NCBI RefSeq assembly: GCF_009914755.1
Contig: NC_060936.1
Reading direction: 5' to 3' (one strand)
DNA length: 64,000 nt
Origin: the human T2T-CHM13v2.0 reference genome, Homo sapiens
The position numbers and the translations under genes were made by a program. The notes under the pieces were generated by a model. The model searched no databases. It saw nothing but the letters and a program-made list of their open reading frames with translations, and was not told where the DNA came from. Positions 25,989 through 57,055 of the stretch are shown one piece after another. Numbering within the stretch: position 1 is the first letter of the stretch; each line of letters opens with the position of its first letter.

Positions 25989-26019
25989 CGCCCAGAAGAT
26001 ACTGACTCTTGCCGGTCAC
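25989..26019 (-). CDS. PPP1R12A: MYPT1 alternative exon E24 (31 nt); inclusion gives the leucine-zipper-negative isoform
   Basis: GTGACCGGCAAGAGTCAGTATCTTCTGGGCG between AAG acceptor and GTATGA donor; frameshift gives VTGKSQYLLGGTKSSRKKNI* with TGA at 25237-25239, the known LZ- tail. Confidence 0.93.
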
Positions 26020-28530: not shown

Positions 28531-29843
28531 CTGCAACAAAGTAAGAAATTATAAAAGAGATAAGTGCAAAAAAGTTCAGGGGTGACCACAGTAATTCTCT
28601 TTTAATAGGTATTAAATCACAATATTCAAGTGGAGTAAAACACAGGTTCGTAAGTAAAGCAAAGAGAAAACAGGATTTGTATTAAAATAATAAAGAGTGC
28701 AATGAATGTTTAGAAATAGAATGGTAACCAGAGCTCTCATTTTATGTTCTCTATCACTTTTCCCCAGGAACTTTCATAGTTTAGCTGGGCGTGAGGGTGA
28801 GTGAGTATGTGGAAGAAAAACAAAAAAAAACTGTAGCTTTCCTTCTGAAGCTCAAATTCTTTCCTTTCCTACACCATCAGGAGTGGCTAATCAGAATGGT
28901 CAGATTCCAGGACCTTGATTGAAATATATTCATCAGCAGGTTGAATGACTCTGTATCCATGCAGCCAGACCAGTAAACTGGCCTTTTTATCTTCTCCCAC
29001 AGCTATCTTGGTCTTGGCTCACACTCTAGGTTTCTTTTCCAATCATCCATGCTCCACAATTGGTTCACATCCACTTTCACTTATAAGAAATTCTAGCTGT
29101 ACAGCTTTCTTCTGCTGGTGAGCTCAGGCCTTTCATTTTTTCCACTTCCTGTACTATCTGACCAGCTCAAAGCTGATGAAATCCTGATATATAAGCTTGG
29201 CTTTAAGGGATGGAAAAGCACCTTGGGTTTTAGCCTACCTGTTGTATCCTGTACTGGAGAGCTCTGGACATTAAGCACAGGCACAGTTTAAGAACAAAAC
29301 AAAAAAAGAAAAAAAAAGAAAAAAACAGTGGCATCTTAGATTTTATTTACATTGATCTCTGTACAAACATCTCCCTTGGAATTCCTGGTCAATTTGCTGA
29401 AAATGAATTCCTCAAAAGCCAACTTGCTGAATAACCAATTTTACTAATTTACCAAAAATGGTTTTTGACCACTTTAACAAGAATGCTTTATGAGTGCTAA
29501 CCACAAAATATGCTTTAAAAACATATTGATTAAACACAATTTCACTGTTAAATGTGGTAATTTTAAAAATATTTCTTTACATAATTTTCTTTTATGCCAA
29601 CCCTTTCAGTATTCATGTTTTAGTATCTCTAGGACTTATAACCAAGTCACTTTTTGATCCCTCTTTCACAATTTTTACGGTTATGGTGTGTAACATTTAA
29701 AGAACTAATCATGGCTAGGTTTTCTTACTTTTTCTCTTATTTTAAAATGGCTTCAAGCTTTTGTGCTTACTCTTTCTGGAAACATAAAAGTCAATATTCC
29801 AATTGGTTCTTGTGAGAAATTCAGTTCAGAATTTCAAATATGA

Positions 29844-35316: not shown

Positions 35317-35452
35317 CTTTTTAAAGTCAGTTGAGTCATCCTTTTCTAGCCTGCTGCTGTAAGGTTTTCTTTCTTCTAAGTAACTGTATGATCCAGAGCG
35401 ACCCAGCAAGGAATCATATCGATCACCAGCTGATGTAGAACTGGTTTCATAT
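35317..35452 (-). CDS. PPP1R12A: MYPT1 exon 21 (136 nt); S910
   Basis: YETSSTSAGDRYDSLLGRSGSYSYLEERKPYSSRLEKDDSTDFKK; AAG acceptor, GTACTT donor. Confidence 0.97.
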
Positions 35453-35608: not shown

Positions 35609-35902
35609 GTTATTTTATTTTTTTAGATAGGGTCTCACTCTGCTGCCCAGCTTGGAGTGCAGTGGCATGATCTCAGGTCACTGCAGACTCGACTTCTCGG
35701 GCTCAAGTGATTCTTCTACCTCAGCCTCCTGGGTTGCTGGGACTACAGGCATATGCCACCATGCCTAATTCTGTACTTTTGGTAGGGATGGGGTTTCACC
35801 ATGTTGCCCAGGCTGGTCTTGAACTCCTGGGCTCAAGCAATTCACATGCCTCAGCCTCCCAAAGTGCTGGGAGACTACAGGAATGAGCCACTGCACCCAG
35901 CC
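35609..35902 (-). mobile_element. Alu (AluJ-like)
   Basis: Reverse Alu consensus. Confidence 0.92.
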
Positions 35903-36266
35903 TATTTTTTTAATACTACTAATTTCCATTAATTGAGGAAGAGAGTCAAAATTTCCATGTTTAAAAGCCAAAACTGGTTTCATATAATGATTAATATTTT
36001 AAATTGTACATTTCCTCCCACATTTTAATATTTCCAAAACCAGAAAATGGCTTACAATTGATGATGCATTATAGTTTAATTGGTAGCACCTTTCCTTTTT
36101 TTCAGTAGTAGGTAACACAATGGTGTTTTAAAATGAGTAATGTCTTAGATTTGATGAAATAAAGTATATCCAAAGTGACAAGTAATGGGTTTGTCCTAAG
36201 CAGGAAAAACATATCTTACTGGTAAAGGAGAATTCTCTTATTATCTGGTTCTGAAATTCAGGTTAC

Positions 36267-36349
36267 CTTTTCTGAAAGATGCCATTGGCTCTGCATTTCA
36301 ATTCAATAGAATCATCAGTAGACAGAAATTTATTACTGGTCTTACAGGG
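36267..36349 (-). CDS. PPP1R12A: Candidate alternative exon (83 nt; internal 24-nt variant 36267-36290)
   Basis: CTCCATTCCATTTCTCTTATCATTGTTAACCACAG| PCKTSNKFLSTDDSIELKCRANGIFQK+AG |GTAACC; open in phase 0 to 2 like exon 20. Confidence 0.5.
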
Positions 36350-36447
36350 CTGTGGTTAACAATGATAAGAGAAATGGAATGGAGATCAAAATCAAGGATA
36401 TAGTGGAGGTTCTCTGAAAAGATGGATAATTTTGAATTAGGTGACAC

Positions 36448-36740
36448 TTTTTTTTTTTTTTTTAAAGACACAGGGTCTCACTGTATCCAGTGAGGAGTGC
36501 AGTGGCACAACCATAGCTCACTATAACCTTGAGCTCCTGGGAGCTCAAGTGATCCTTCTGACTCAGCCTCCCCAGCAGCTAGAAATAGAGGAGCATACAG
36601 TTATGCCTGGATAATTAAGAAATTTTTTTTTTTTTTGGTAGAGATGGAGTCTTGATGTTGTCCATGCTGGTCTTCAACTCCTGGACTCAAGTGATGCTCC
36701 TGCCTCAGCCTCCCCAAGTGCTAGGATTAAGGGTTGAGCT
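36448..36740 (-). mobile_element. Alu (AluJ-like)
   Basis: Diverged reverse consensus; TSD tgacacttttt. Confidence 0.9.
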
Positions 36741-37134
36741 AGATGACACTTTTTTAAAAGTGTCTTCACTGGTTCTCTTTTGTCTAAAGCAGGGCTACAA
36801 GAGAAGATTCTGAATACTTAATCAAATACATTTCTGGCCAAGTGTGGGTTTTATCAGTCCCTGATGTTAATAATGAGATAGTTGAACTAACTTAAGAAAC
36901 TTTGGAATACCTTTGTTGTAGAGATTTGGGGAAAAATCTTACTTGCTCTGACTAGTGATCTTGAAGTAAAGCCTTTAACAAAGAAAGCTAGTAACAATGA
37001 TAAGGCCATCAAAATTTGTTTTTTATTATCAAATAATTCTATAAACTTACAAAATCCATAAATTCCTAGCAACACATTTTTAACAAAGATAAAAATAAGA
37101 AAAAAATGTCAGTTAAAAAATAAATAAAACATAC

Positions 37135-37151
37135 CTAGAAATGGAATCCGT
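37135..37151 (-). CDS. PPP1R12A: MYPT1 exon 20 (17-nt microexon)
   Basis: ACGGATTCCATTTCTAG = TDSIS+AG, needed to complete the known protein; strong pyrimidine tract TTTTTCTCTTTCTTTCCAG, GTATGT donor. Confidence 0.95.
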
Positions 37152-38610: not shown

Positions 38611-40530
38611 GTTCCCCAAATTTTAAGATTAATTTTCCAAAGTAAAAATATCTTTTTAAAGATAAAAAAGATTAAAATATATAGAAAGATATTCAGAAAT
38701 ATCTTTCTGACTATGGTATTGTAAAGTTCACATAATGGTATACAAAGTTCCTGTGTAATTCCTCATCCCTCCATTCTCTAGATAACCACTGTTATCTAAC
38801 CAACCTTTTCTGGACACATAATATCTATGTGAATATAGAAAATATTGATCTATGCACATACATTGCACCTTATTTATTTATCTACATCCATTCTTCCTTT
38901 TTCTCATGGTATAGCAGTTACTAGGTTTAGGTGAGATGACACATGGCCCATGTTGGTAGCAAAATGGCTGCAACAGTTCAGTGATAGGCCCTGTCTATCC
39001 TAAGCCAACTATAATCCTATCCCTATGAGGTACATCAGCCTGAGGATGAAGCTGACACAAAGGACTGCAGAATATAACTGGAGTACAATACATTTTCTTT
39101 GTTTAATCCAGTTTGACTTAGGTTTCATATTGTTATTTATATTTGTTATATTTATTTATATGTTATTCATTACTTTAAAAGAACTCTAAACAATCTAAAG
39201 TAAACAAAAACTACTTAAATTGAAAATAAAAAAACTTTTCGTCTTAGAAACAATGTTCCTCTTCATCTTAACGTATCTCATATGATTTTAACAGTAAAAC
39301 TTAAAATACAGTATACATCAATATGCTTCAAAATTACAACTTTAAAAGCTAGACAATCTCCCTTCCACTCCAGCCTGGTGGGGGCTGGAGTCTGCGTGAT
39401 AAGGCAATGAGAGGTGTCAGATGGGGATGGTTTACTAATTTCCTCCCCTCTTGTTTAATAAAGAAGGGACATAGGTAAATTGGGGAGTTCTGATAACTGA
39501 TAACCAAAAAATTTAGGTAACAGTTAAAGCTTTAGGCCTGCAAATAATTTAACCTCAGAACCAATTCACTCCTCATTGTCTGGCCACCTAAAGATAAAAT
39601 AAAATTGTGGGGTCAAAATAGGCAAACTTGGCCCTAAAATAATGTTCACCGTCACCTAGCACAGGTAACCAACTTTTGTTCACATTACTGTAGATCCTTG
39701 CTGACTAAAAAGAAATGTAATAGCTCTATTAAGGAACTTCAACTCAAAATGAAGAAAATAATATTAATATGACCAGAATGCTATTTCATGCTAGACAGTG
39801 CCAGGTTTAGACTCGTGTTGTTCAGCTCTATCCTCATATGAACAGAAATATTTTGAATATTTTTTAGCTTTCTACACAGCCAAACAATCAGGAAGGGGGT
39901 CGGGGGAACTTTCAACCCTTGCTGGCTGTGCAGCCTTGTCATTCAAACTTGCTTTAGGTCCTTCATCAGTACTGAGAGGAAAAAAATGTCTTTTAGATTC
40001 TCAACATAAAAATCTGTTGGAGACTCTAAATTTCTAAATATATGTAAAAGAAAGTTAAAAGATGCCTATATTCTCCAGAACATAACTTTGAAATAAAATC
40101 TACAGAAATAAAATCTGAGCCTACTACTTCTGGATTTCCACTACTTCTGATTATCCTTTAGATATTTTCCTTTGGCCAAGGGTACTATTTCTTTTTTTGC
40201 TTTTTCTTTTAACTCCGAAGGTTAAATGACATACATTAAATTACATCCACTTAGAGTGTACAATTTGGTGAGTTTTGGCAGTTCTGTATATCCATAAAAC
40301 CACTGCTAGGATCAAGACTCAGAACATTTTCATCACCTCCAAAACATTATTTTGTGACCCTTCCCAGTCCTTTTAATCCTGATCCCCAGGCAAACACTGA
40401 TATTGCATACCCAGCATGTAGGTAGAGTATGCAATAACTGCTTTGCATGAATAAACATAATAAAACGCAATTTAAAAGTAATTATTAAAAAATATGAATA
40501 CTTCTCAATACAAAAAGTAATGGTATTTAC

Positions 40531-56455: not shown

Positions 56456-56671
56456 CTTTTCTTTATTATCCAAAGAGGAGGAAAGTCTGGGACTTGAAGC
56501 TGAACGTGTAACACCTGCAGTATCTTTTTCTTTCTGACCCTCTTTAGATGCTGTGATTTCAGCAAGTGCACCATAGCTGCCCGTCTTTCTAAGTCCTAAC
56601 CTCCAAGTTGCAGGAGACTCATCTTTTCTCTCTTCTTCTTTGGGAGAAATTTTTGTAGCTGTGGTTGGAAA
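56456..56671 (-). CDS. PPP1R12A: MYPT1 exon 10 (216 nt, F414-K485); contains S445 and S472/S473
   Basis: Translates FPTTATKISPKEEERKDESPATWRLGLRKTGSYGALAEITASKEGQKEKDTAGVTRSASSPRLSSSLDNKEK, matching human MYPT1; CAG acceptor, AAG|GTAAT donor, phase 0/0. Confidence 0.97.
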
Positions 56672-57055
56672 CTGTGTTTATTTTATTTTTTAGGAAAAGA
56701 AAAAAGAATTTGTAAAGCTGATCAGTCCTTAAATTGGAAACAATAAGTTTACAGATAATATATTTAAAATTATGGTTTACAGTTTCAGGATAAAACACTT
56801 TTACTACATAGGTTAATGTCTTAGTAAAAAATGTAAAGATCTAAAAATTTTAAAGAAATAGACTACCTTCCTAGGGGTTAGACTTAAGAAAACACACTAC
56901 ACACTTTATATCACACAGAAAAATTATGATGCAAATACAGAAAACAGAAATGAGCACACCATAAGGACTTAAAACCATGCATCTTTGGAACCAATTTATA
57001 TTAAACTTGTTATGTTGTAACCTAATATAAATTCTTGCACATAGAAATGCCTCAC

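What the first reader, a model, noticed from the sequence alone, without database searches (positions are those of the whole stretch)
36267..36384. 83-nt exon phase-matched to the 17-nt microexon: mutually exclusive partner, poison exon or 24-nt microexon
Seen: pyrimidine-rich acceptor (...TTTCTCTTATCATTGTTAACCACAG, AG at 36350-36351) and donor AAG|GTAACC at 36266. Read from phase 0 it is open for 27 codons plus 2 nt (PCKTSNKFLSTDDSIELKCRANGIFQK-R), the same phase 0 to 2 as exon 20 (TDSIS-R). It contains a faint echo of that exon (TDDSIE). Three outcomes follow. Replacing exon 20 gives an in-frame +22 aa variant. Including both exons gives a frameshift with an internal TGA (NMD/poison exon). 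Using the internal TGCAG at 36291-36292 after exon 20 adds 8 aa in frame (ANGIFQKR). Which, if any, occurs is inference.
Basis: partly seen in the sequence, partly recalled or inferred. Interest (0 to 1): 0.7.

Follow-up and report, generated by a model that had tools for sequence, protein, structure and literature searches.

The report
Known rare decay-triggering exon in PPP1R12A
The 83-base stretch is a real but rarely used extra exon of the human PPP1R12A (MYPT1) gene that was described in print in 2022 as breaking the reading frame, so the finding is correct but not new.

Summary
On the minus strand there is an AG at 36351-36350, an 83-nt body at 36349-36267 and a donor AAG|GTAACC. Frame 0 is open for 27 codons plus 2 nt, the same phase as the 17-nt exon 20.

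Sequence alone would not mark it out. 59 intronic AG..GT pairs in this window score at least as well, and random sequence gives about 43.

It is nevertheless a documented exon. Saldanha et al., Cells 2022 (PMC9367544), call it E20+, "83 bp", in intron 20. It belongs to Ensembl transcript PPP1R12A-217, annotated as nonsense-mediated decay. Two ESTs splice it in, and its use is called "very rare". Their Figure S1 prints the exon with exactly these borders.

The in-frame swap (+22 aa) has no transcript support. Among 5.8 billion proteins only one macaque gene model carries the peptide. That model looks like an artefact of missing the microexon. The 24-nt variant relies on a very weak acceptor.

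Verdict: already known, low interest.

The parts
36267..36349 (-). 83-nt cassette exon E20+ of PPP1R12A (Ensembl PPP1R12A-217, NMD biotype)
   Evidence: Sequence. Figure S1 of the supplement to PMC9367544 prints the same exon with identical borders. [quoted passage not shown]
36350..36384 (-). Acceptor region: interrupted pyrimidine tract, AG at 36351-36350, and branch-point-like TTGAT and CTTAT motifs upstream
   Evidence: The acceptor score of 5.38 is mid-range among the annotated acceptors. No other AG lies between the TTGAT motifs and the acceptor (read).
36261..36266 (-). Donor GTAACC after AAG. It lacks the consensus G at +5 and T at +6.
   Evidence: score 7.16, above 7 of 15 annotated donors.
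36298..36300 (-). TGA that becomes the premature stop when E20+ follows exon 20 (17 out-of-frame codons after exon 20)
   Evidence: the first stop lies inside the exon, 374 nt upstream of the last exon-exon junction. Position read.
36291..36292 (-). Internal AG proposed for a 24-nt variant; purine-rich upstream sequence, so it is unlikely to be used
   Evidence: acceptor score -0.82.
37135..37151 (-). Constitutive 17-nt microexon E20 (TDSIS plus 2 nt), the upstream partner
   Evidence: and the hub table. 108 of the 120 listed MYPT1 proteins carry its pentapeptide (TDSIS, TDSIP or TDSVS) before exon 21.
35317..35452 (-). Exon 21, the downstream partner
   Evidence: and the hub table. Its 45 aa are 100% identical in all 120 listed hits.
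36445..36745 (-). Context only: an old Alu in the sense orientation of the gene, with its poly-A ending about 95 nt upstream of the exon. It is flanked by a direct repeat, AAAAGTGTCA(T/C)CTA.
   Evidence: Read. Identification as Alu is by eye and recall, not by a repeat library.

Best explanation
The stretch is E20+, a rarely used cassette exon in intron 20 of PPP1R12A (MYPT1). It has ordinary, middling splice sites. When it is spliced between the constitutive 17-nt exon 20 and exon 21, its 83 nt shift the frame. After 17 out-of-frame codons a TGA at 36300-36298 ends translation. This stop lies far upstream of the last exon junction, so the mRNA is expected to be removed by nonsense-mediated decay. 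Any protein made would stop at about residue 905 of 1030 and lack the C-terminal coiled-coil and leucine-zipper part.

Shown: the sequence, the frame arithmetic, and identity with the published and Ensembl exon. Taken from print: that two ESTs splice it in and that its use is 'very rare'. Inferred: that decay really acts on it, and that it is a low-level by-product of splicing rather than a regulated switch.
For: - Identity: Figure S1 in the supplement of PMC9367544 prints 'Exon 20+' as ...ttgttaaccacagCCCTGTAAG...TTTCAGAAAAGgtaacctgaat, the same borders as 36349-36267.
- Annotation: section 3.2 of the main text places E20+ in intron 20. It names transcript PPP1R12A-217, annotated as nonsense-mediated decay, and calls its use 'very rare'.
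- Frame check here: with both exons the first stop lies inside E20+, 374 nt before the last junction.
- No coding constraint: the macaque counterpart differs at 3 of 28 residues, against 2 of 467 in the well-aligned flanking exons (Fisher p = 0.0015).
- No paralogue counterpart: the DNA and the peptide each match only themselves in the human genome.
- Not in other lists: the NMD-event table of Lim et al. 2020 has no PPP1R12A row, only PPP1R12A-AS1. The poison-exon supplements of Felker et al. 2023 have none either.
Against: - I saw no reads myself. Figure S3B is an image and is not held, so the EST accessions are unknown.
- I could not see directly that the two ESTs also contain exon 20. This is inferred from the legend and from the NMD biotype.
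- Two ESTs are thin support.
- Decay lowers steady-state levels, so 'very rare' may understate how often the exon is spliced in.
- Conservation beyond one macaque protein model could not be tested. A regulated role is therefore not excluded.
Confidence: 0.85

Rival explanations
1. E20+ is a regulated poison exon. Cells vary its inclusion to tune the MYPT1 dose, as SR-protein genes and SCN1A do with theirs.
For: - The mechanics are the same as in the best explanation, and an NMD transcript is annotated.
- The gene is dosage-sensitive. The row for PPP1R12A in the supplement of PMC12096787 shows pLI>0.9 'Yes', dominant inheritance and loss-of-function disease.
- The splice sites and open frame persist in macaque.
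Against: - Its use is described as very rare and rests on two ESTs.
- It is not in the NMD-event table of Lim et al. or the poison-exon tables of Felker et al.. The column 'TANGO_(Lim.et.al)' reads 'No'.
- At least 3 changes in 83 nt between human and macaque is about the neutral rate (the rate is recalled). Known regulated poison exons are highly conserved.
- No counterpart exists in the paralogues.
Confidence: 0.1
2. The 83-nt exon is a mutually exclusive partner of the 17-nt exon 20 and gives an in-frame MYPT1 isoform with 22 extra residues.
For: - The phases match and the swap stays open to the normal stop.
- One protein, P0101 (Macaca fascicularis, 1012 aa), reads ...KKETQ-PCKTNNKFLSADDSIELKCRANGICQKR-YETSS.
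Against: - P0101 is 1 of the 120 listed proteins. It is the only hit to its own residues 838-877 among proteins of 556-1771 aa (1 of 2 candidates). Among proteins of 30-555 aa there is none (0 of 1 candidate). None of the listed human or other primate isoform models with this context has the peptide.
- P0101 also has gaps and clustered mismatches elsewhere.
- Other automatic models that miss the microexon patch the frame in other ways. 4 of 120 read 27 nt and more into intron 19 at 40530-40504, and 2 of 120 read VKSIFL. P0101 therefore looks like an artefact of the same kind.
- The peptide differs at 3 of 28 residues from human, against 2 of 467 nearby.
- The similarity of the two exons is no better than chance (800 of 5,000).
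- The documented transcript is the frame-shifted one.
Confidence: 0.03
3. It is a chance pseudo-exon that is never spliced, and the Ensembl model rests on artefactual clones.
For: - 59 intronic pairs score at least as well in this window, and random sequence gives about 43.
- One of the three ESTs covering it carries intron sequence on both sides.
Against: - Two ESTs are reported to splice it in at exactly these borders.
- Ensembl annotators accepted the transcript.
Confidence: 0.02

Closest known systems
E20+ of PPP1R12A (Ensembl PPP1R12A-217), Saldanha et al., Cells 2022;11:2315 (PMC9367544)
   Same: It is the same object: same intron, same 83 nt, same borders, same consequence.
   Different: Nothing differs. 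The paper does not discuss the phase match with exon 20 or give RNA-seq counts for this exon. All 19 of the 20 'E20' matches that I viewed in its supplement were canonical junctions or legends.
Poison (NMD-coupled) cassette exons, for example those of SR-protein genes or SCN1A exon 20N (recalled)
   Same: It is a cassette exon whose inclusion brings a premature stop far upstream of the last junction.
   Different: Those exons are strongly conserved and regulated. Here the only cross-species evidence (macaque) fits neutral drift, and use is described as very rare.
E24 (31 nt, or 13 nt as E24b) of the same gene, which gives the leucine-zipper-minus isoforms
   Same: It is a short cassette exon in the same gene whose length is not a multiple of three and which shifts the frame.
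   Different: With E24 the new stop lies in E25, near the 3' end, and the transcripts are annotated as protein coding and give shorter isoforms. With E20+ the stop lies inside the exon itself and the transcript is annotated as NMD.
Intronic pseudo-exons (decoy AG..GT pairs)
   Same: By site strength and length it cannot be told from about 59 others in this window.
   Different: This one has EST and Ensembl support.

Membership tests
NMD-coupled (poison) cassette exon | Bounded by canonical AG and GT with usable flanking signals | tested here: met
   AG and GT are present. The scores (5.38 and 7.16) fall within the range of the gene's own exons.
NMD-coupled (poison) cassette exon | Actually spliced into transcripts of the gene | not testable with these tools
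   No read data are held here. In print, two ESTs splice it in and it is part of Ensembl transcript PPP1R12A-217 (PMC9367544).
NMD-coupled (poison) cassette exon | Inclusion creates a stop more than about 50-55 nt upstream of the last exon-exon junction | tested here: met
   the stop lies inside the exon, 374 nt before the last junction.
NMD-coupled (poison) cassette exon | Transcript level rises when NMD is blocked | not testable with these tools
   No such data are held. The main text of the 2026 bioRxiv resource on NMD-inhibited brain cells does not name PPP1R12A, and its supplements are closed.
NMD-coupled (poison) cassette exon | Conservation or regulated inclusion (needed for a functional poison exon, not for membership as such) | tested here: inconclusive
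   The only comparison is with a macaque protein model: 3 of 28 residues differ, against 2 of 467 in flanking exons. No vertebrate genomes are held.
Mutually exclusive exon pair | The two exons are related (tandem duplication, similar length and sequence) | tested here: not met
   Lengths are 17 and 83 nt. The best local match is 8 of 9 nt, a score reached by 800 of 5,000 random intronic 83-mers.
Mutually exclusive exon pair | Transcripts or proteins exist that carry the alternative exon in place of the other | tested here: not met
   Only one automatic macaque model carries it: 1 of 120 listed proteins, and nothing else in the 5.8 billion-protein searches. The documented transcript is the frame-shifted one.

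The most novel reading that the evidence does not exclude
E20+ may be included far more often than steady-state data show, because decay hides it. It would then act as a brake on the MYPT1 dose. PPP1R12A is haploinsufficient, so blocking this exon would raise the protein level. Deep-intronic variants that strengthen its weak donor or pyrimidine tract would then be an unrecognised cause of loss of function.
Probability: 0.1. Interest if true: 0.45.

Novelty: already known. Interest (0 to 1): 0.1.

Why it matters
It matters little as a discovery. The exon is in Ensembl/GENCODE and was described in 2022. Three practical points remain.

1. The RefSeq-based table given to the scan lacks this exon, and it also lacks E22+ and E24 in the same window. 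Readers will therefore keep 'discovering' exons that Ensembl already holds.
2. PPP1R12A is a dosage-sensitive disease gene. A frame-breaking exon in it is relevant to interpreting deep-intronic variants and, if inclusion proved substantial, to exon-blocking approaches.
3. The 17-nt exon 20 is mishandled by automatic gene builders in several species. 12 of the 120 listed models lack its pentapeptide, and one of them uses E20+ as a patch.

Tried and rejected
- **Chance pseudo-exon.** This was my working view up, on the counts. I dropped it when the exon turned up in print.
- **Repeat or paralogue origin.** The DNA at 36200-36445 and the 27-aa peptide each match only themselves in the window's own genome. 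The tool says its counts are lower bounds.
- **Direct protein search with the 27-aa peptide.** I searched with exon 21 instead, then with residues 838-877 of the macaque hit.
- **Paper searches that gave nothing on this exon.**
  - 'PPP1R12A' + 'poison exon': 3 papers. Passages read in two concern E14 and a VastDB exon elsewhere in the gene.
  - 'MYPT1' + 'splice variants' + 'human' + 'exon 22': 0 papers.
  - 'myosin phosphatase' + 'MYPT1' + 'alternative exon' + 'bioinformatic': 9 papers, 7 listed, none opened.
  - 'PPP1R12A' + 'cryptic exon': 5 papers. Passages read in two.
  - 'PPP1R12A' + 'microexon': 3 papers.
  - 'PPP1R12A-217': only PMC9367544.
- **Supplement searches.**
  - Lim et al. 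2020: only a PPP1R12A-AS1 row.
  - Felker et al. 2023: no occurrence in 5 files.
  - PMC12096787: one row, which gave hg38 exon coordinates and TANGO 'No'.
- **Not attempted.** Structure prediction, RNA family searches and complex prediction do not bear on this question.

Full report
**1. What is in the sequence**

The gene runs on the minus strand. There the window reads ...ccatttctcttatcattgttaaccacag|CCCTGTAAG...TTTCAGAAAAG|gtaacc. The AG is at 36351-36350, the body at 36349-36267 (83 nt) and the GT at 36266-65. The internal tgcAG is at 36292-36291. Exon 20 is the 17-nt ACGGATTCCATTTCTAG at 37151-37135.

- The 83-nt exon in place of exon 20 stays open to the normal stop (+22 aa).
- Exon 20 plus the 83-nt exon gives a first stop inside the new exon, 374 nt before the last exon junction. 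This is the TGA at 36300-36298, 17 out-of-frame codons after exon 20.
- Exon 20 plus the last 24 nt stays in frame (+8 aa).
- Skipping exon 20 alone gives an immediate stop.

**2. Is it more than chance?**

On sequence alone, no. I scored the sites with a simple weight matrix built from recalled human splice-site frequencies. The acceptor scores 5.38, above 9 of the 16 annotated acceptors in the window. The donor scores 7.16, above 7 of 15 annotated donors. The internal acceptor scores -0.82.

- In 41,317 nt of the gene strand, 239 AGs and 48 GTs score at least as high. They form 70 pairs 30-250 nt apart, 59 of them intronic.
- First-order Markov sequence gives 42.8 +/- 9.5 pairs, 4.1 +/- 2.0 of them open from the first base. 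A per-intron recount of the real sequence in the same call gives 58 pairs and 6 open.
- 16.4% of intronic 81-nt windows are open in a given frame (6,292 of 38,254).
- The TDDSIE/TDSIS 'echo' is an 8-of-9 nt match. 800 of 5,000 random intronic 83-mers reach the same local score.

Up to this point I read it as a probable decoy.

**3. Surroundings**

Intron 20 holds two Alu-like elements in the sense orientation of the gene, at about 36745-36445 and 35902-35625. I identified them by eye. The exon lies about 95 nt beyond the poly-A of the first, in DNA that matches only itself in the window's own genome. The 27-aa peptide likewise matches only itself. The paralogues PPP1R12B and PPP1R12C therefore have no counterpart at E <= 10.

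**4. Proteins**

A search with the 45 aa of exon 21 returned 1,073 hits, of which 120 were listed. All 120 are MYPT1 models from primates and carnivores, and they include many predicted human isoforms.

The sequence just before exon 21 divides them as follows:
- 108 of 120 carry the microexon pentapeptide (TDSIS 73, TDSIP 26, TDSVS 9).
- 4 read VNTITFCIEK. This maps to 40530-40504, a read-through of the exon 19 donor.
- 2 read VKSIFL.
- 4 join an upstream exon directly.
- 1 is otherwise aberrant.
- 1, P0101 from Macaca fascicularis (1012 aa), carries PCKTNNKFLSADDSIELKCRANGICQKR. This is the 83-nt exon in place of exon 20.

Residues 838-877 of P0101 found only P0101 itself. This held among proteins of 556-1771 aa (1 of 2 candidates) and among those of 30-555 aa (0 of 1 candidate).

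P0101 also has gaps and clustered mismatches elsewhere. I read it as one more gene model that missed the 17-nt exon and patched the frame.

P0101 does show that the AG, the GT and the open frame persist in macaque. The peptide differs from human at 3 of 28 residues, against 2 of 467 in the well-aligned neighbouring exons (Fisher p = 0.0015). There is therefore no sign of coding constraint.

**5. The decisive evidence is in print**

A search for 'MYPT1', 'isovariants' and 'exon' brought up Saldanha et al., Cells 2022;11:2315 (PMC9367544). I read the outline, all of part 1 of the Results, passages of the Discussion, and parts of the supplement.
[quoted passage not shown] E20+ belongs to PPP1R12A-217, annotated as nonsense-mediated decay. 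[quoted passage not shown] Two clones splice it in, and a third carries intron sequence on both sides.
- Figure S1 prints 'Exon 20+' with lower-case flanks ...ttgttaaccacag and gtaacctgaat... around exactly the 83 nt of 36349-36267.

The candidate is therefore E20+. In hg38 it lies at chr12:79,789,598-79,789,680. I derived this. T2T is one base shorter than hg38 between exon 20 and E20+.

**6. Mechanism**

Shown:
- The exon has usable but unremarkable splice signals.
- Including it after exon 20 shifts the frame to a stop that satisfies the usual distance rule for nonsense-mediated decay.

From print:
- It is spliced in, rarely.

Inferred:
- The mRNA is degraded.
- Any protein made would end near residue 905 of 1030. 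This count assumes that the window encodes residues 414-1030. Such a protein would lack the C-terminal coiled-coil and leucine-zipper region.
- The event is a low-level by-product rather than a regulated switch.

The last inference rests on four things:
- The reported rarity of the exon.
- Its drift between human and macaque.
- Its absence from the paralogues.
- Its absence from two lists of decay-coupled exons and the 'No' in the 'TANGO_(Lim.et.al)' column of PMC12096787's table.

None of these is strong. Decay itself hides such transcripts, and I had no access to reads or to vertebrate alignments.

**7.

The swap is arithmetically sound but has no transcript evidence. The two exons are not related. 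The only protein that shows the swap is an automatic model. The 24-nt form depends on an acceptor preceded by a purine-rich stretch.

**8. Verdict**

The feature is already known, and interest is low.

The boldest reading still open is that inclusion is substantial once decay is blocked. That would make E20+ a dose brake in a haploinsufficient gene. I put this at about 0.1.

Noticed in passing
window 29239-29263 (-): E22+, a 25-nt exon in intron 22 (Ensembl PPP1R12A-205, annotated as NMD, one EST). It is absent from the hub's RefSeq table. I located it from Figure S1 of PMC9367544 and read it in the window: tgtccag|AGCTC...AACAG|gtaggc.
   Followed up: partly
window 25989-26019 (-); short form 26007-26019: E24, the 31-nt exon (13 nt as E24b) whose inclusion gives the leucine-zipper-minus MYPT1 isoforms. 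It is also absent from the hub's table. In the window it reads ctgaaag|GTGACC...GGGCG|gtatga.
   Followed up: partly
window 40504-40530 (-) and proteins P0022, P0049, P0079, P0083, P0038, P0105, P0101: Several automatic MYPT1 models (gorilla, bonobo, mandrill, dingo, cynomolgus macaque) lack the 17-nt exon 20. They keep the frame by reading into intron 19 or by borrowing E20+. This is a systematic microexon annotation error.
   Followed up: partly
window 56672-56691 (-): The acceptor of the constitutive exon 56456-56671 is preceded by aaaaaataaaataaacacag. It has almost no pyrimidine tract and scores -10.4 on the simple matrix, by far the lowest in the window.
   Followed up: no
window 36445-36745 and 35625-35902 (-): Intron 20 holds two Alu-like elements in the sense orientation of the gene. 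The first is flanked by a 14-nt direct repeat. Between exon 20 and E20+, T2T is one base shorter than the hg38-based numbering of PMC9367544.
   Followed up: no
PPP1R12A, exon not identified: A bioRxiv preprint (10.1101/2025.06.28.662167, passages only) shows a spinal-cord-specific cassette exon in PPP1R12A with a TTTTT (TIA1-type) motif near its splice site. The figure is not held, so I do not know which exon is meant. Exon 20 has a T-rich stretch just after its donor.
   Followed up: no
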